Virus record (IMG/VR): IMGVR_UViG_2802429234_000005
Coordinates: 1-52,974 of that record
DNA: 52,974 nucleotides
DNA from: a virus
Taxonomy: Duplodnaviria; Heunggongvirae; Uroviricota; Caudoviricetes
Direction: 5' to 3' (one strand)
Shown here: one piece after another, positions 1-9,000 of the stretch
Layout of the letters: the number at the start of each line of letters is the position of its first letter
Numbering within the stretch: the stretch's first letter is position 1
Position numbers: made by a program

Positions 1-3000
1 TTATTTCACTTCAACCACATTCAGCCGTAATTCATCCAGCTGATTCTCATCTTCTTCAGGCTGCCAGCCCGCAGGCTGTAGTGGGATATCTTCGCGATCA
101 AACGCCAGATCACCGCCGTTAACCACTTCGGAACCGTGGGTAATGCCTTTGAAATCGAAAAGAGTGGTATCGCACAAATGAGACGGCACAACATTCTGCA
201 TCGCGCTGAACATCGTCTCAATTCGCCCCGGATAACGCTTATCCCAGTCACGCAGCATATCGGCAATCACCTGACGTTGCAGGTTAGGCTGTGAACCGCA
301 AAGGTTGCACGGAATAATCGGAAACGCTTTCGCATCGGCAAAACGTTGAATATCTTTTTCGCGGCAGTAGGCCAGCGGACGAATCACGATATGTTTGCCA
401 TCATCGCTCATCAGTTTCGGCGGCATACCTTTCATCTTGCCGCCGTAGAACATATTCAGGAACAACGTTTGCAGGATATCGTCACGATGGTGACCCAGCG
501 CGATCTTCGTCGCACCCAGCTCCGTTGCCGTGCGGTAAAGGATACCGCGACGCAGACGAGAGCACAGTGAGCAGGTAGTTTTGCCCTCAGGAATCTTCTC
601 TTTCACGATACCGTAAGTGTTCTCTTCAACAATCTTGTACTCAACGCCCAGCTTTTCGAGATACTCCGGCAGAACGTGTTCCGGGAAGCCAGGTTGTTTC
701 TGGTCGAGGTTAACGGCAACCAGCGAAAAACTGATTGGCGCACTTTGCTGCAAATTACGCAAAATCTCCAGCATGGTATAGCTGTCCTTACCACCGGAGA
801 GGCAAACCATAATGCGATCGCCATCTTCAATCATATTGAAGTCAGCAATGGCTTCGCCTACGTTACGACGCAGACGTTTTTGCAATTTGTTCAGGTTGTA
901 TATCTCTTTCTTCGTATTCTTTTGATTTTCTTGCATTATTTCAGTTCTCTGGTACTAAATGGGGCAAATTGGGGGCAAACTTTGCAACTACGATAACCGC
1001 GCATTCAACATAGCTACCTGTTCGTCGTTCATGTCATCAATCCACATACCGTAAATTTCATACACCATCTGCGCAGTTTCATGCCCCATCTGGCTGGCTA
1101 TAAATGCCGGGTTCGCTCCTGCCGTCAACAGCCAGCAGGCAAAAGTATGTCGCGTATGGTACGGATTACGGCGGCGAATACCAGCACGTTTTACTGCTGC
1201 ATTCCATCTCGCACCCAAACTGCTTACCGAGTAATAAGGTTTCTGTTTTCCGTTACACATCCTGGGCATGAAAACAAAATGCAGTTTTTGCTTTTCGGTT
1301 CTGCCGTACTCCCGATGATAAAAAGTGATTTCGCTTTTGCGATGATGCCCGGTCAGTTTGTATTGCTCCTTCAGTGCTTCAAGAGCTGGCTGTAGTAGTG
1401 TTACCGTCCGGATCCCCGCATTTGTTTTTGGGGGACCGAACATATCAAGTATCGTCAGGTTTCTTCTGACATTCACAATTCCCTTCTCGAAATCCACATC
1501 CTCCCACGCCAGAGCAGCCAGTTCCCCGTGACGAAGCCCGGAGTAAACGGCAAATTTCCACAAGTTCTGGCTCTGTCCTTTTTCACTTTCCATTAATGCA
1601 TTGAATTCTGTTTTAGATAACGGATCAGGCTTTATTCTGTTTCGCTGTAATTTTTTTACTCCTTCAAATGGTTTGGTTGATATAAATCCCGACTGATACG
1701 CAAAACGTAACAACGAACAGAGCAGGGCGATATAGTTATCAACTGTGCGCACGGTTCTTCCTTTTTTGTTGGATCTTGGATTATCCAGGTAAAATGTTTC
1801 TCCATGCAGCAGTTCATTCCGGTAGTTTAAGATATCGCTATAACGAATATGTGATATTGGGGTACTCTCACAAATTATTATCCTGAGTGTTTTTAATTGT
1901 GATTTCGTTTTCTTCATTGTGTTTGTTGTTAACTCTGTCTCTTTAATTTTTGTCCAGATATCACAAAGCTCCCCGAACGTTTTTATGACCCTCGTTGTCA
2001 CCATTTTTGCCCCAGTACTGGACTGGGGAAAACGTCTTAAATACTCAAATTCACCGGAGTTGATTTCATGAACTATCAACGCTCTTAAATTCCCGGCCTT
2101 TTTAATGTTACTGTTAGTAACCTCCCAGCCTTTCAATGTTTCCCGACATCGTTTTCCTCGAAACATGAACCAGATGCGAATGTATTTACCTCGAATCTCG
2201 ACACCTGTTGGTAATTTAGACATATCATGAGTCTTTGATAAACTGATTTATCTTTGGATAGTTGTACCAGATAATCCCTCGCTTACTGTCTGGCTTCCCT
2301 AAAGGAGATACTCGTTTGAAGTGGAAGCCTTCTACCCAACAGTTCTGGCGGTATGCTTCAATTTGTCTGGCTCCCAGACCAGTGCGAAGCATCAGGCCGT
2401 ATTCAACCATCCACTCTTCATTAAAGATTACTTGTGCCATCGCATCACCTCTGGCAGGCGCCAATGTTAGACTGAAATTGACGCCCGATGTTGATTATTA
2501 ATAATCAGCTATGAAGTTTTAATTTGAATACAATGCAATTCACGAAGATTGAAGTTTCTCGCAATTAAAATTTATAAGTTTTACTTTCTGCTCTCTGGAA
2601 ACACCAGCTTCTTTTTTCCCTGAGAGCATTTTTTCGCATTCCGATTTGGTTAACTTTGTTGTTGAGTACCTTGTCCAGCTGGTAGGAGAACCTCCTTCCT
2701 TTTCAATAGTGGCGGTAATTTTATACATGAACACCTCCATTATTATTTCCAGTAGTTCGTTTATTCCATCTTTCGAGAGCTTCTTTTTCACTTCCACCAT
2801 AGCCGGTTCGGGATTCGCATCCGTTACACTTCGCGCGGTAATATCCTGAAATGGCTTTCACCGTTACTGATGGACAACCACAAAAAGGGCATGGTTTGAC
2901 TTTTTCATACCGCATTGTCTTTTCTCTCATAAAATAAAATTTTTTGATGGCGGTGGGACTACACCGCCAAAGTAAATATCAGGAGCCGATATATTCTGGT

Positions 3001-6000: not shown

Positions 6001-9000
6001 TTACACGCTGTGGTATCGGGGCAGAGGAGCGACCGCAGGCAATATCCACGATTTCCGGATCAGGGTTGGCATGATCGGTTTCAGTCAGTACTTTGTTCAG
6101 ATATTCAGTGACGTGCGCGGGGATGACCTCGATCCCAATTGGTGCTTCTTTCACGGACGCAACCACGATGGCGCGTGAATAATCCAGCCCGCCAGGCATA
6201 GTGATGAATTTGTCGCGGAAAACAGAAAAGGGCGGTTTATTTTCAGCGATAATTTCCTCAATGCGTTTAGCGTGTGCTGGATGAAGGTTATAGATGTCCA
6301 CGTCCATTGAACGGGCCAGTACGCCAGTGGCTACATCGCGCGCCAGTGACGTCAGATCGTGGACGAAACCTTCGCCGCGATCGGTGAGGTTCCCGCCGCC
6401 AGCATTAGCACCGGAAGCCGTGCGAGTGATGCGTGAAACACGATTCCCTTTTCGCCATTCTTTTGTCAGAAGACCGCGATCAATGTGTTCGGTATCCAGC
6501 CAGGCTGAAATGAAATTCTTAAATTCATAGGGCTGATGTTTTTTCGTGATAGAGAAAACTGCCTTAATTGCATCAGTCAGGCGGAGCAGGGCGGCATTAT
6601 CCAGAGTTGTCGGTTCTGCCATGCCGCGTATGGCCAACAGCAGATTCTGGACATAGCTGTTTTCCTGATCCATCTCAAGAGCAGTAATGTGTTCGCGTTG
6701 TTCTCGGGTGGCATGATGCAGGTATTTCCGATCCCCGGCCGCATACGTAAAAATGTGCAGAAGACGCTGTGTGAACCGCAAAGTAGATACAGAGACTTCG
6801 CAATCCTGGCAATCCCCGTGAGCGTCTGCCTGTGTGTTTTCTTCCTGGCCTCCCGCCGGTTCTTCGATTTCCGGTGCATTATCCTGATGGTGAACGTCGT
6901 CTGGCGCTGCTCCCGGTTTTAGTTCCCAGGTCATGGAGTCTTTGCTGAGTTGATAGCGTTCACTCCAGGTAAAATCGATCTCACCTTCAGGGGGAAGGTC
7001 ATTAACGACAGGAAAATTCGTGGCAACAGGTTTAAAATAGCTGCTCAGTTTTTTACCTGACTTAACGAGCAGGTAATCCAGAGTGGCACAGGTCGATTCA
7101 AAATCGTCGCTTGCCCACAGGACGACGTCAGGTTCACCGGATGATTTTTTCGCTTTCCGTAACAGGAAGAGTGGTTTTGTGCTCATTGTTTTTTAACCTC
7201 AACTCAGATTAAAATTCGTTTTGTTCAGTGAATGATCTTGCCGGATACACACTGTTCATAGCCTGCGCCATACGCAGGCTATTTCTTTCAGATTTCACCG
7301 TTTAATTTCATTGCAATCAGAGTTGCCAGAAATCCGGCTTTTTTTTCTGCGGGCAGATTCTTTCCGATGTGAACCAGGCACATTTTTGTGACACCTTCAT
7401 CAAGTGTTTTTACGTTGCCAGATGGACCGTCGATATCAACCACAGTGAATGGGGTTTCTTTATTTTCTGTTTTAATCACGTAGCCAATGCGCTTTCCTTC
7501 CAGATTAACCTCGTGAACAATGTCATCGGTAGTTACAACAGTGGCTTCATAATTGGTAATCATGTTTTTCTCCTTAATTAGGTTGAGCGAATCCCTGCCA
7601 TTGCTGGCATAAATTCAGTTTCGAATAGTCAGTTAATTAAAGTTCGTGTGCCATCTGGTCTTTTTCGGCACATATTTCACTACAATATTTTTTCATTTCC
7701 GTCGTTGGGATAACTCCACGCATGAAATGAAGTGGTGTTTTAATGCTTTTGCTTTCTTCAATTTCTTTATTGCAAAGGTGGTAAGCACATTTTATTTTCT
7801 TAGTCTTCACCATGACTCCGCCTTTACAGGTAAACCATCACGACCGAGGAAGACTTTGATCATGCAGTCAGTAATGCATGTTTTTGTGGTCAGGCTACGG
7901 ATATAAAGTTTCCTCTTTTTAATATTATTTGCCGAGGCAATATATGTCCGGCCTTCATGAAGAACATAATCGCCAGGAGTCACACACTGACGTGGTATTT
8001 CATCAGTTCCGAAGTGATGTGCAATCATAATTATCTCCATTTTTACAAATGAACTTTGTTGATGCGGCGCCTGGTGCCTCCAGGTGACTGCAACCAGTTA
8101 ACAATTACAGTCGGCTTTCCCACCCAAACCAATAAGGACTAACATGACTTTTAACTGTGCCGCGTGCGCTTAGCCGCATTCACCGCATCACAAAATTCAC
8201 TTTAAAAAGGGCGGACATCAGTCGAACTTCAAGAAAAAACTGATGCCGCCAAGACTACACACAGCAGTGTTGTTATTCACAACCGGAGGCGCACTCCCAC
8301 CATTTAAATTTAACAGACAAGACCGACTCTTTATGGATATCGGAAATGCGCCTTCGTGTTGCGCCCGGTTTTATTTCACCACCTCCGGGCTTCGGTGGTC
8401 TCTGCTATACCCCTACAGCGAGAGCTTGTGTTAACATTTCAATACCCTTACAGTCGAGATTTATTGATATGTTGGAGATATTTACTCCATTGTTGAAACT
8501 TTTTGCTAACGAGCCACTCGAAAGACTTATGTACACGATTATCATTTTCGGCCTCACTCTCTGGTTGATACCGAAAGAGTTTGCTGTCGCATTCAATGCT
8601 TATACTGAAATACCCTGGCTCTTTCAGATTATCGCTTTTGCCTTTTCTTTCGTGGTCGCTATTTCCTTCTCAAGATTGCGAGCGCATATTCAAAAGCATT
8701 ATTCATTGCTACCAGAGCAACGAGTATTGCTTCGTTTATCAGAGGAAGAAATCTCTGTATTTAAAGATTTCCTTAAAACAGGAAATCTTATTATCACTTA
8801 TCCTTGCCGTAACCCGGTTACGAAAAAATTAGAACGGAAGGGCATCATTCAACATCAGAGTGATAGCGCAAACTGTTCTTATTATCTCGTCACCGAAAAA
8901 TACTCCCACTTTATGAAGTTATTCTGGAACAGCAGGAGTAGGCGTTTTAATCGTTAGCTTACTGTGTGCTTCTCCAACCATCGACGCGCGCCAGCTTCGG

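What the first reader, a model, noticed from the sequence alone, without database searches (positions are those of the whole stretch)
2979..7186. Recombination module diverged from K-12 Rac: enlarged RecE-like exonuclease and a non-RecT 350-aa partner
The exonuclease ORF is 1047 aa with a long acidic, low-complexity central region, and the downstream 350-aa ORF does not match my recollection of K-12 RecT although it occupies that position. The module may be a swapped recombineering pair of different specificity.
Basis: inference. Interest (0 to 1): 0.4.

Follow-up and report, generated by a model that had tools for sequence, protein, structure and literature searches.

The report
Gifsy-type RecE/RecT module in Rac
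This is an ordinary, already-annotated phage recombination gene pair (a DNA-end-chewing exonuclease plus a strand-annealing protein) in an E. coli Rac-type prophage; its business end has been exchanged for the version known from Salmonella Gifsy phages, and the 350-aa partner is a true RecT-family protein, not a different kind of recombinase.

Summary
Both ORFs exist exactly as described: recE 4043-7186 (-), 1047 aa, and a 350-aa ORF at 2979-4031 (-). The "non-RecT" reading is wrong at family level. The 350-aa protein scores 148 bits on Pfam RecT (cut-off 24), over the same model positions as K-12 RecT. It belongs to a different subfamily (Gifsy-1/mEp237, historically "enterohemolysin"/EHAP1-like) with no pairwise similarity to K-12 RecT.

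The "swapped pair" reading is right. Against K-12 Rac, window 2970-5344 (recT plus RecE residues 615-1047, the nuclease domain) is replaced as one block. The flanks are 90-95% identical.

The enlargement does not come from the acidic centre, which K-12 shares. It comes mainly from a conserved 140-aa helical insertion in the nuclease domain, inside the rim loop thought to capture DNA. Catalytic H682/D919/D932/K934 are intact.

RefSeq already names both genes. The allele occurs in about 160 of 5426 complete E. coli genomes and in phage Rac-SA53, and Gifsy recET is genetically validated.

One modest extra: the annealase's helical C-terminal domain co-occurs strictly with the nuclease insertion, whichever annealing core carries it. 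This suggests a docking pair. It is inferred, not shown.

The parts
4043..7186 (-). recE, 1047 aa, exodeoxyribonuclease VIII (mosaic of Rac-K-12-type and Gifsy-type segments)
   Evidence: ORF. NCBIfam exoVIII equivalog NF007259 scores 1333.5 bits against a cut-off of 1269. Pfam Exonuc_VIII and DUF3799 both match. RefSeq names the 99%-identical gene recE.
6641..7183 (-). RecE N-terminal Exonuc_VIII domain (residues 2-182), function unknown
   Evidence: Pfam PF06630, 221 bits. Residues 1-96 are nearly identical to K-12.
6482..6884 (-). Second, smaller replaced block in RecE (about residues 102-235) with no K-12 DNA similarity
   Evidence: Gap in the blastn comparison with K-12. It is 95% identical to Rac-SA53 and 31-40% to Gifsy-1/mEp237. 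It is present or absent independently among IMG/VR loci that share a 99%-identical nuclease and RecT.
5345..6049 (-). Acidic, low-complexity central region of RecE (about residues 380-614), including a CxxC...CxxC motif at residues 541-556; shared with K-12
   Evidence: Charge profile. About 90% DNA identity to K-12. Protein alignment.
4046..5344 (-). RecE C-terminal PD-(D/E)XK nuclease domain, Gifsy type (residues 615-1047)
   Evidence: No K-12 DNA similarity. Family profile against PDB 3H4R (K-12 RecE nuclease domain) gives E 1.1e-11 in two pieces. It is 49-62% identical to Gifsy-1/mEp237. Pfam DUF3799 matches residues 860-1024.
4601..5020 (-). 140-aa helical insertion in the nuclease domain (residues 723-862), between the equivalents of K-12 residues ~692 and 693
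   Evidence: Seven-sequence alignment. The AF2 model predicts helices with pLDDT 80-94 across RecE ~694-874, which spans the insertion. It is conserved at 37-43% identity over 193-194 aa in Salmonella, Klebsiella and Aeromonas phages. The K-12 665-698 loop is described as the DNA-capturing rim loop in PMC11611040.
5141..5143 (-). Codon for His682 (equivalent of K-12 His652)
   Evidence: Alignments. Nearly invariant (H68) in family alignment A1.
4385..4432 (-). Codons for catalytic Asp919 (4430-4432), Asp932 (4391-4393) and Lys934 (4385-4387), forming the PD...DxK motif
   Evidence: BLASTP and phmmer alignments to K-12 D748/D759/K761. Invariant as D305, D318 and K320 in A1.
4032..4042 (-). 11-nt recE-recT spacer containing a GGAAGGA Shine-Dalgarno sequence
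   Evidence: Sequence read directly.
2979..4031 (-). recT-family annealase gene, 350 aa (Gifsy/EHAP1-like subfamily)
   Evidence: Pfam RecT, 147.9 bits. phrog_561, E 2e-145. 49% identical over full length to Gifsy-1 RecT. RefSeq name 'RecT family recombinase'. The 99%-identical cluster has 855 members.
3405..3944 (-). RecT annealing core (residues 30-209)
   Evidence: Pfam PF03837 model positions 2-190 of 198. The AF2 model shows a mixed alpha/beta core, and the best PDB hit is the Red-beta N-terminal domain 7UJL at a non-significant E 0.17.
3318..3392 (-). Variable, predicted-disordered linker (residues 214-238)
   Evidence: Hypervariable columns in A2. pLDDT below 50 across residues 193-238.
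2982..3317 (-). RecT C-terminal helical domain (residues 239-350), proposed partner-docking domain
   Evidence: pLDDT 80-93, helical bundle. Only 49 representatives among 1.84 billion proteins, always at the C-terminus of the protein; every one of the 10 full-length members scanned has a RecT-family core. Strict co-occurrence with the nuclease insertion.
2970..5344 (-). The cassette exchanged relative to K-12 Rac (recT plus the nuclease-domain codons of recE)
   Evidence: blastn against NC_000913 Rac: the flanks 1-2969 and 5345-6481 align at 94% and 90%, and nothing aligns in between. K-12-like genomes match only query positions 2367-4208 of the finding.

Best explanation
The locus is a two-gene phage single-strand-annealing recombination module of the RecE/RecT kind. 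It sits in the early-left operon of a Rac-type prophage integrated next to ttcA.

Proposed mechanism:
- RecE is a 5'->3' dsDNA exonuclease. Its C-terminal PD-DXK domain resects a double-strand end and leaves a 3' single-stranded tail.
- The RecT-family protein, whose gene follows recE after an 11-nt spacer with its own Shine-Dalgarno sequence, coats that tail and anneals it to complementary DNA.

Compared with K-12 Rac, the functional unit (the nuclease domain plus the whole annealase) has been replaced by the Gifsy-1/mEp237-type version through recombination inside recE near codon 614. Most of the K-12-type N-terminal 614 residues were kept.

The Gifsy-type version differs in three ways:
- a 140-aa helical module inserted into the channel-rim loop of the nuclease;
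- an annealing core of a different RecT subfamily;
- a 112-aa helical C-terminal domain on the annealase.

Inferred, not shown: the annealase C-terminal domain is the adaptor that docks onto the insertion-bearing nuclease, giving this pair its own partner specificity.
For: Shown:
- Context. ttcA-intR-xis-ralR-[recT][recE]-racC-ydaE-kilR is collinear with K-12 Rac at 94-95% DNA identity outside the replaced blocks.
- RecE membership. The NCBIfam equivalog score is above its cut-off, and both Pfam domains match.
- Catalytic residues. H682/D919/D932/K934 align with K-12 H652/D748/D759/K761 and are (nearly) invariant in the family. The PD-DXK motif and His652 are defined in PMC11611040.
- RecT membership. 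Pfam scores 148 bits, and K-12 RecT matches the same model positions.
- Gifsy relationship. Both proteins are collinear over full length with their Gifsy-1 counterparts: 43-44% identity in the two RecE alignments and 49% in RecT, including the insertion and the tail.
- Genetics. Gifsy-1/-2 recET, when derepressed, suppress recB recombination defects (PMC3121763).
- Gene integrity. Both ORFs have the same lengths as the RefSeq proteins.
- Frequency. The whole module is in 159 of 5426 complete E. coli genomes, and this recT in 163. It is also in the 52-kb phage Rac-SA53.

For the docking inference:
- In the phage collection, the tail is found in 21 records and the insertion in 20. All 20 are shared, and the extra record is cut at its end.
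- The annealing core alone is found in 82 records.
- All 78 tail-bearing IMG/VR loci with enough upstream DNA have the insertion.
- Aeromonas phage pAEv1818 and a Serratia locus carry a K-12-like RecT core plus this tail, next to an insertion-bearing exonuclease.
- TL-2011b and SPN9TCW carry the window-type core with a different tail, next to a K-12-type nuclease without the insertion.
- K-12 RecE has the long N-terminal region but no insertion, and its RecT has no such tail. So the tail tracks the insertion, not the N-terminal region.
Against: - No activity was measured.
- Structure-based tests were inconclusive. The AF2 models have mean pLDDT 62 and 67, the nuclease core is poorly modelled, and there are no significant Foldseek hits.
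- The docking inference rests on few independent reassortment events, essentially two lineages. recE and recT are adjacent, so co-inheritance by linkage alone could produce the association.
- Divergence of tail and nuclease is not tightly coupled. Between Gifsy-1 and pAEv1818 the nuclease is 80-85% identical but the tail only 32%.
- In the window versus Rac-SA53 comparison, a recombination junction lies inside the tail near residue 282.
- The tail could instead bind host SSB or another factor, as discussed for other RecT C-termini (PMC13490951).
Confidence: 0.9

Rival explanations
1. One reading: the 350-aa protein is not a RecT but an annealase or recombinase of another family (Erf, Rad52/Sak, Red-beta/Bet), recruited into the RecT position.
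For: There is no pairwise or profile-sequence similarity to K-12 RecT. The subfamily profile has no hit to any solved RecT or Red-beta structure. The best fold hit is Red-beta rather than RecT, but it is not significant.
Against: Pfam RecT scores 147.9 bits against a cut-off of 24 over nearly the whole model, and no other family was reported at E <= 0.01. All three PHROG hits are RecT-like families. K-12 RecT matches the same Pfam model positions. Databases name it 'RecT family recombinase'. The subfamily is described in the literature as a distinct subgroup within the RecT/Red-beta superfamily (PMC8093625).
Confidence: 0.03
2. The module is a decaying prophage remnant. On this view the extra 140 aa in RecE and the long RecT tail are junk from illegitimate recombination, and the genes no longer work.
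For: K-12 Rac is a defective prophage whose recET genes are silent. The locus is heavily mosaic. Chimeric RecE-RecT ORFs exist in databases.
Against: Both ORFs are full-length and equal in length to the RefSeq proteins. The insertion and the tail are conserved in register across Escherichia, Salmonella, Klebsiella, Serratia and Aeromonas phages at 35-45% identity. Both are predicted as confident helical domains. The catalytic residues are invariant. The Gifsy versions with the same architecture are genetically active. The window carries a full set of large structural-gene-sized ORFs.
Confidence: 0.04
3. The annealase C-terminal domain does not dock on the nuclease insertion. It binds host SSB (or the RecE N-terminal region, or DNA), and its association with the insertion is only linkage within one cassette lineage.
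For: The Red-beta C-terminal helix binds the SSB C-terminal tail, and extended RecT C-terminal bundles have been proposed as accessory surfaces for SSB or host factors (PMC13490951). Tail and nuclease divergence are poorly correlated in some pairs. There is a junction inside the tail in the Rac-SA53 comparison. Independent reassortments are few.
Against: The tail is retained with the insertion-bearing nuclease even where the annealing core has been exchanged for another RecT subfamily. The same core occurs without the tail when the nuclease lacks the insertion. All these hosts are Gammaproteobacteria, and K-12 RecT works in E. coli without this domain, so an SSB-only role does not explain its distribution. 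K-12 RecE has the N-terminal region but its RecT lacks the tail.
Confidence: 0.45
4. The 350-aa protein is an 'enterohemolysin' or haemolysin-associated virulence factor, as some database names say.
For: Homologs are named 'enterohemolysin' in several records.
Against: The name is a legacy annotation. The protein has a full RecT domain, sits immediately downstream of recE in every locus examined, and the EHAP1-like group is classified as an annealase subgroup (PMC8093625).
Confidence: 0.01

Closest known systems
Gifsy-1 / Gifsy-2 RecE-RecT (Salmonella Typhimurium STM2632/STM2633) and coliphage mEp237 / HK225 exonuclease-RecT
   Same: Same two-gene order and sizes (961-969 aa plus 369-370 aa). 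Both proteins are collinear over full length: RecE is 41-62% identical in the nuclease domain including the 140-aa insertion, and RecT is 49% identical including the helical C-terminal domain. Same Pfam domains. The Gifsy genes are genetically shown to substitute for RecBCD when derepressed (PMC3121763).
   Different: The window's RecE carries a K-12-Rac-type N-terminal and central region (residues 1-96 and 236-614) instead of the Gifsy one, including the acidic stretch and the CxxC...CxxC motif. Identity to the Gifsy proteins is only about 40-60%.
E. coli K-12 Rac RecE/RecT (b1350/b1349; nuclease domain structure PDB 3H4R)
   Same: Same prophage backbone, attachment site and gene order. RecE residues 1-96 and 236-614 are about 90-95% identical at the DNA level. 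Same catalytic H/D/D/K residues and PD-(D/E)XK fold family. Both annealases belong to Pfam RecT.
   Different: The nuclease domain is only about 25-30% identical and carries a 140-aa insertion in the 665-698 rim loop. The annealase core is of another subfamily with no pairwise similarity. The annealase has an extra 112-aa helical C-terminal domain. recE and recT are separated by 11 nt here, whereas they overlap by 8 nt in K-12.
Escherichia phage Rac-SA53 (KU052037) and the E. coli yebY-site prophage pair (NZ_CP169399)
   Same: RecE is nearly identical in the nuclease domain and insertion (96-98%). Rac-SA53 also shares the whole Rac backbone and the ttcA attachment site.
   Different: The RecT annealing core is only 59-60% identical, because a diverged patch runs from the recT start to about residue 282. 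The yebY prophage also has a different RecE N-terminus (31%).
Lambda Exo / Red-beta
   Same: Same logic: a toroidal 5'->3' PD-(D/E)XK exonuclease plus a Rad52-like annealase whose C-terminal domain binds its own exonuclease and SSB. This is the model for the docking inference (PMC11611040).
   Different: No detectable sequence similarity. Lambda Exo is a single 226-aa domain. [quoted passage not shown]
Uetakevirus-type pairs (TL-2011b, SPN9TCW, phiV10): stand-alone 273-aa exonuclease VIII plus 293-aa RecT-like 'enterohemolysin'
   Same: The annealing core is of the same subfamily (48-51% identity).
   Different: The exonuclease is a bare K-12-type nuclease domain (49% identical to K-12 RecE 595-862) with no N-terminal region and no insertion. 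The annealase tail is different and shorter.

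Membership tests
RecT family (Pfam PF03837; RecT/Red-beta superfamily of single-strand annealing proteins) | Significant match to the family profile across the annealing core | tested here: met
   147.9 bits against a gathering cut-off of 24, residues 30-209 on model positions 2-190 of 198. phrog_561 gives E 2e-145. K-12 RecT matches the same model at positions 1-187.
RecT family (Pfam PF03837; RecT/Red-beta superfamily of single-strand annealing proteins) | Rad52-like beta-beta-beta-alpha core fold | tested here: inconclusive
   The AF2 model has mean pLDDT 66.6. The top PDB hit is the Red-beta N-terminal domain 7UJL, but at E 0.17 and TM 0.15-0.31.
RecT family (Pfam PF03837; RecT/Red-beta superfamily of single-strand annealing proteins) | Encoded next to, and co-directional with, a 5'->3' exonuclease partner | tested here: met
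   The gene lies 11 nt downstream of recE with its own Shine-Dalgarno sequence. The same arrangement is seen in all related loci examined.
RecT family (Pfam PF03837; RecT/Red-beta superfamily of single-strand annealing proteins) | ssDNA binding and annealing activity | not testable with these tools
   Needs biochemistry or recombineering assays.
Ortholog of K-12 RecT (b1349) | Detectable pairwise similarity to, and collinearity with, K-12 RecT | tested here: not met
   BLASTP best E 0.36. hhalign of the subfamily profile against K-12 RecT gives probability 0.4%. No DNA similarity.
EHAP1-like subgroup of RecT/Red-beta (Iyer, Koonin & Aravind 2002, as cited in PMC8093625) | Similarity to the E. 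coli/Salmonella enterohemolysin-associated protein group | tested here: inconclusive
   Homologs at 58-71% identity are named 'enterohemolysin'. PMC8093625 describes the subgroup. The type sequence and the primary paper were not available.
Other annealase families (Erf, Rad52/Rad22, Sak, Sak4/RecA-like, Red-beta proper) | Profile match to any of these families | tested here: not met
   Pfam at E <= 0.01 returned RecT only. PHROGs returned only RecT-like families.
RecE / exodeoxyribonuclease VIII | Full-length match to the curated equivalog model | tested here: met
   NF007259 scores 1333.5 bits against a cut-off of 1269, residues 1-1046 on model positions 1-874 of 877.
RecE / exodeoxyribonuclease VIII | N-terminal Exonuc_VIII domain plus C-terminal PD-(D/E)XK (DUF3799) domain | tested here: met
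   PF06630 scores 221 bits and PF12684 scores 52 bits (cut-off 26). The PF12684 match covers only model positions 61-222 because the insertion splits the domain. The family profile hits 3H4R at E 1.1e-11 in two pieces.
RecE / exodeoxyribonuclease VIII | Active-site His + PD...DxK residues (K-12 H652, D748, D759, K761) | tested here: met
   H682, D919, D932 and K934 align. They are invariant or nearly invariant in 15 family members.
RecE / exodeoxyribonuclease VIII | Toroidal tetramer and processive 5'->3' dsDNA exonuclease activity | not testable with these tools
   The AF2 monomer model of the core is poor (pLDDT below 50 over residues 284-381 of the domain). No multimer prediction was available.
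Gifsy-1-type RecET cassette | Nuclease domain with the 140-aa rim-loop insertion, paired with an annealase carrying the helical C-terminal domain | tested here: met
   The insertion aligns in register with Gifsy-1, mEp237, Rac-SA53 and pAEv1818. The tail is 47% identical to Gifsy-1's. The two features co-occur in 20 of 20 phage records and 78 of 78 IMG/VR loci.

The most novel reading that the evidence does not exclude
The 112-aa helical C-terminal domain of the annealase and the 140-aa helical module inserted in the channel-rim loop of the nuclease form a dedicated, portable docking pair. This pair would set exonuclease-annealase partner specificity independently of which RecT-type annealing core is attached. 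Evolution has moved the adaptor between two RecT core subfamilies, and engineers could do the same. That would answer, for one RecET lineage, the open question of whether RecT uses a C-terminal domain to bind RecE.
Probability: 0.35. Interest if true: 0.4.

Novelty: already known. Interest (0 to 1): 0.15.

Why it matters
As a finding it matters little. The genes are correctly named in RefSeq, the allele is present in about 3% of complete E. coli genomes and in a sequenced Rac phage, and the Gifsy-type pair has been known genetically since the 1990s.

Its modest value is comparative. The locus is a clean natural example of the functional unit of RecET (nuclease domain plus annealase) being exchanged as one block at the boundary of the minimal active RecE domain.

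The strict co-occurrence of the annealase tail with the nuclease insertion gives a concrete, testable candidate for the RecE-RecT interface. Reviews still list that interface as unknown. If it holds, it could guide the design of orthogonal or portable recombineering pairs.

Tried and rejected
1. Fold searches of both AF2 models against the PDB gave no significant hits. The nuclease core was poorly modelled from a 15-sequence alignment, so the fold tests are inconclusive rather than negative.
2. The profile of the annealase subfamily against K-12 RecT (hhalign) and against PDB sequences found nothing. I do not read this as 'not RecT', because the broader Pfam model unites both.
3. By eye, the insertion looked as if it contained repeated 'YNASLP...SGT+EQL' HeH/SAP-like motifs. 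Self-BLAST found no significant internal repeat. Pfam gave only sub-threshold hits (Ish1 E 0.05, SAP_new25 E 0.13, Stk19 E 0.012). I therefore make no DNA-binding-motif claim.
4. The window versus Rac-SA53 comparison (nuclease 97%, tail 82%, core 59%) first looked like a third case of the tail travelling with the nuclease. DNA-level mapping put the junction inside the tail near residue 282, so I dropped it as evidence.
5. Correlated evolutionary rates of insertion and tail are seen in the IMG/VR set but not between Gifsy-1 and pAEv1818, so I do not use them as support.
6. The primary classification paper (Iyer et al. 2002) could not be retrieved. The EHAP1 assignment is therefore indirect.
7. 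The genome-contig scan for K-12-like-core-plus-tail annealases returned only two loci. One of them has a core 89% identical to that of the Aeromonas phage, so it adds no independent event.

Full report
**What is there.** The window begins with ttcA (1-936, -). It continues with a Rac-type early-left operon on the minus strand:
- intR, 988-2223
- an excisionase, 2225-2464
- a DUF1187 gene, with the RalA sRNA on the opposite strand
- ralR, 2721-2930
- the 350-aa ORF, 2979-4031
- the 1047-aa ORF, 4043-7186
- racC-like, ydaE and kilR genes

The order is the same as in K-12 MG1655 Rac. The recE stop and the next ATG are separated by 11 nt containing GGAAGGA. The central part of the large protein is strongly acidic.

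**Family assignment.**
- The 1047-aa protein passes NCBI's exodeoxyribonuclease VIII equivalog model (1333.5 bits, cut-off 1269).
- It also has the Pfam Exonuc_VIII N-terminal domain and a PD-(D/E)XK (DUF3799) C-terminal domain.
- The 350-aa protein matches Pfam RecT at 147.9 bits (cut-off 24) over model positions 2-190 of 198.
- It matches PHROG 561, 'RecT-like ssDNA annealing protein', at E 2e-145.
- No Erf, Rad52, Sak or other annealase family was reported.
- K-12 RecT matches the same Pfam model over positions 1-187.

The underlying impression was nevertheless accurate. BLASTP between the two annealases finds nothing (E 0.36). A profile of the window protein's subfamily does not see K-12 RecT (hhalign probability 0.4%) or any solved annealase. 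They are two subfamilies held together only by the broader family model.

Many homologs carry the legacy name 'enterohemolysin'. [quoted passage not shown] I could not obtain the primary paper, so that assignment is indirect.

**How it differs from K-12.** At the DNA level the window aligns to K-12 Rac as follows:

| Window segment | Identity to K-12 Rac |
|---|---|
| 1-2969 | 94% |
| 2970-5344 | no similarity |
| 5345-6481 | 90% |
| 6482-6884 | no similarity |
| 6885-9192 | 95% |

- The large replaced block is precisely recT plus the codons for RecE residues 615-1047.
- K-12-type genomes accordingly match only the 5' 44% of the finding (query positions 2367-4208).
- The left junction (window residue 614, K-12 about 590) therefore lies near the N-terminal boundary of the functional domain. 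What was exchanged is the working nuclease-annealase unit.

**Where the extra length comes from.** The extra 181 residues do not come from the acidic centre, which K-12 shares.
- 140 of them are a single insertion (residues 723-862) in the nuclease domain. This was located with a seven-sequence alignment that includes K-12 RecE and the stand-alone TL-2011b nuclease.
- The insertion falls between K-12 residues about 692 and 693. [quoted passage not shown]
- The region spanning the insertion is predicted as confident helices (pLDDT 80-94 across RecE ~694-874).
- It has no significant Pfam or PDB relative.
- The catalytic residues H682, D919, D932 and K934 align with K-12 H652, D748, D759 and K761. 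They are invariant or nearly so across the family.

**Where the replacement came from.** Both proteins are collinear with the Gifsy-1 pair (STM2632, 961 aa; STM2633, 369 aa) and with the coliphage mEp237 pair.
- The nuclease domain is 49-62% identical, the insertion 41-43%, and RecT 49% over its full length.
- PMC3121763 states that the Gifsy-1 and Gifsy-2 recET orthologs, once derepressed by mutation, suppress recombination defects of recB mutants. This architecture is therefore genetically validated.
- RefSeq annotates the 99%-identical E. coli genes as 'recE' and 'RecT family recombinase'.
- The annealase's 90%-identity cluster has 855 member sequences.
- The whole module is present in 159 of 5426 complete E. 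coli genomes. This recT is in 163, against 1625 for the K-12 type.
- The module also occurs in a prophage at the yebY site and in the 52-kb phage Rac-SA53, whose attP lies in ttcA.

This is an already known, correctly annotated variant.

**Mechanism.** The best-supported reading is the standard one for exonuclease/annealase pairs. RecE resects the 5' strand from a double-strand end, and the RecT-family protein loads on the 3' tail and anneals it. The family memberships, intact catalytic residues, operon arrangement and the Gifsy genetics are shown. The activities of these particular proteins are inferred.

**A secondary observation.** The annealase has three parts:
- a RecT core, residues about 10-213;
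- a hypervariable, predicted-disordered linker, residues 214-238;
- a confident helical C-terminal domain, residues 239-350 (pLDDT 80-93).

An exhaustive search of 1.84 billion representative proteins with this tail found only 49 matches, always at the C-terminus. All 10 full-length members scanned against Pfam have a RecT-family core. By BLASTP, 20 members carry a window/Gifsy-type core and 3 (P0243, P0259, P0277) a K-12-RecT-like core.

Evidence for an association between the tail and the nuclease insertion:
- In the phage collection the tail occurs in 21 records and the insertion in 20. All 20 are shared, and the one extra record ends before recE would begin.
- The annealing core alone matched 82 records.
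- All 78 tail-bearing IMG/VR loci with enough upstream sequence have the insertion.

Two reciprocal natural swaps are informative:
- Aeromonas phage pAEv1818 (and a Serratia fonticola locus of the same lineage) has a K-12-like RecT core. It is 31% identical to K-12 RecT (E 9e-27) and shows no similarity to the window core. It still carries the tail (35% identity, E 2e-14), next to a 1074-aa exonuclease with the insertion.
- TL-2011b and SPN9TCW have the window-type core (48-51% identity) with a different tail, next to a bare K-12-type nuclease without the insertion.
- K-12 RecE has the long N-terminal region but neither feature.

The tail therefore tracks the insertion-bearing nuclease. It tracks neither the annealing core nor the RecE N-terminus.

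[quoted passage not shown] The analogy rests on two statements in PMC11611040: RecT binds RecE but not lambda Exo, and whether RecT uses a C-terminal domain for this is unknown.

Caveats to this inference:
- The number of independent reassortments is small.
- The genes are adjacent, so linkage alone could explain the association.
- Tail and nuclease divergence are not tightly coupled (Gifsy-1 versus pAEv1818: nuclease 80-85%, tail 32%).
- Against Rac-SA53 a junction lies inside the tail.
- A 2026 paper already describes several RecT C-terminal classes and suggests that extended bundles may serve SSB or other factors (PMC13490951).

I put the docking idea at about 0.35.

**Mosaicism.** Among IMG/VR loci whose nuclease domain and RecT are 95-100% identical to the window's, the RecE N-terminal 96 residues and the 97-235 block are present, absent or replaced independently. 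The window's annealing core is only 59-60% identical to that of Rac-SA53, despite 96-98% identity in the nuclease. recE-recT is thus a patchwork of at least five exchangeable segments, as expected for lambdoid early regions.

**Verdict.**
- The thing is a known, annotated Gifsy-type RecET cassette in a Rac backbone.
- Interest is low. The only mildly new point is the tail-insertion association as a candidate RecE-RecT interface.

Noticed in passing
window 2544-2722 (+) and 2721-2930 (-): A complete RalR/RalA type I toxin-antitoxin pair. The RalA sRNA (Rfam RF02694, 179.8 bits) lies antisense to the DUF1187 ORF. ralR (NCBIfam equivalog, 162.6 bits) sits immediately downstream of the recT-family gene.
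   Followed up: partly
window 9193-10483: The immunity region has no DNA similarity to K-12 Rac, while both flanks are about 95% identical. It includes a 135-aa HTH repressor-like ORF (9786-10193, -) and a divergent 76-aa ORF (10276-10506, +). The prophage is probably hetero-immune to K-12 Rac.
   Followed up: no
window 16282-16456 (+); 19045-19117 and 19124-19195 (+): A sok antitoxin RNA (RF01794, 113.6 bits), which implies a hok/sok-type module, and two adjacent tRNA genes inside the prophage.
   Followed up: no
window 7260-7280 (- strand): A perfect 8-bp stem (AGCCTGCG / CGCAGGCT, loop TATGG) directly after the racC-like stop codon and about 75 nt upstream of the recE start. No T-run follows it. 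It could be an RNA stability or attenuation element, or a protein-binding site, in front of recE.
   Followed up: no
window about 5519-5566 (RecE residues 541-556): A CxxC...CxxC motif ([15 protein letters not shown]) in the acidic central region. It is conserved in K-12 RecE but absent from Gifsy-1 RecE. It may be a zinc ribbon, in the part of RecE whose function is unknown.
   Followed up: no
window 12000-52974: A long run of + strand ORFs of structural-gene size (for example 511, 468, 1077, 1132 and 800 aa) suggests a full-length prophage of about 50 kb rather than a 23-kb remnant like K-12 Rac. The related Rac-SA53 is a 52-kb phage record with attP in ttcA.
   Followed up: partly
L006 (PP818812.1, 'Actinobacillus phage vB_Apl-pPE4'): A phage record attributed to Actinobacillus pleuropneumoniae encodes a RecT 99% identical to this E. 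coli protein, plus Rac-type kil, ydaT and dicA-like genes. The host label looks doubtful; it may be an E. coli prophage or contamination.
   Followed up: no
Proteins P0254 (546 aa), P0259 (615 aa), P0247 (456 aa), P0255 (756 aa): Some database representatives fuse RecE pieces to the end of the RecT core and the tail. Examples are the insertion and the C-terminal part of the nuclease in P0254, and the N-terminal Exonuc_VIII domain in P0259. These are probably internal deletions, frameshifts or assembly artefacts in recET loci.
   Followed up: partly
L010-L061 (IMG/VR loci) against window 6482-7186: Among loci with a 95-100% identical nuclease domain and RecT, the RecE N-terminal 96 residues and the 97-235 block occur in at least three different combinations. 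The N-terminal region of RecE, whose function is unknown, is reshuffled independently of the catalytic unit.
   Followed up: partly
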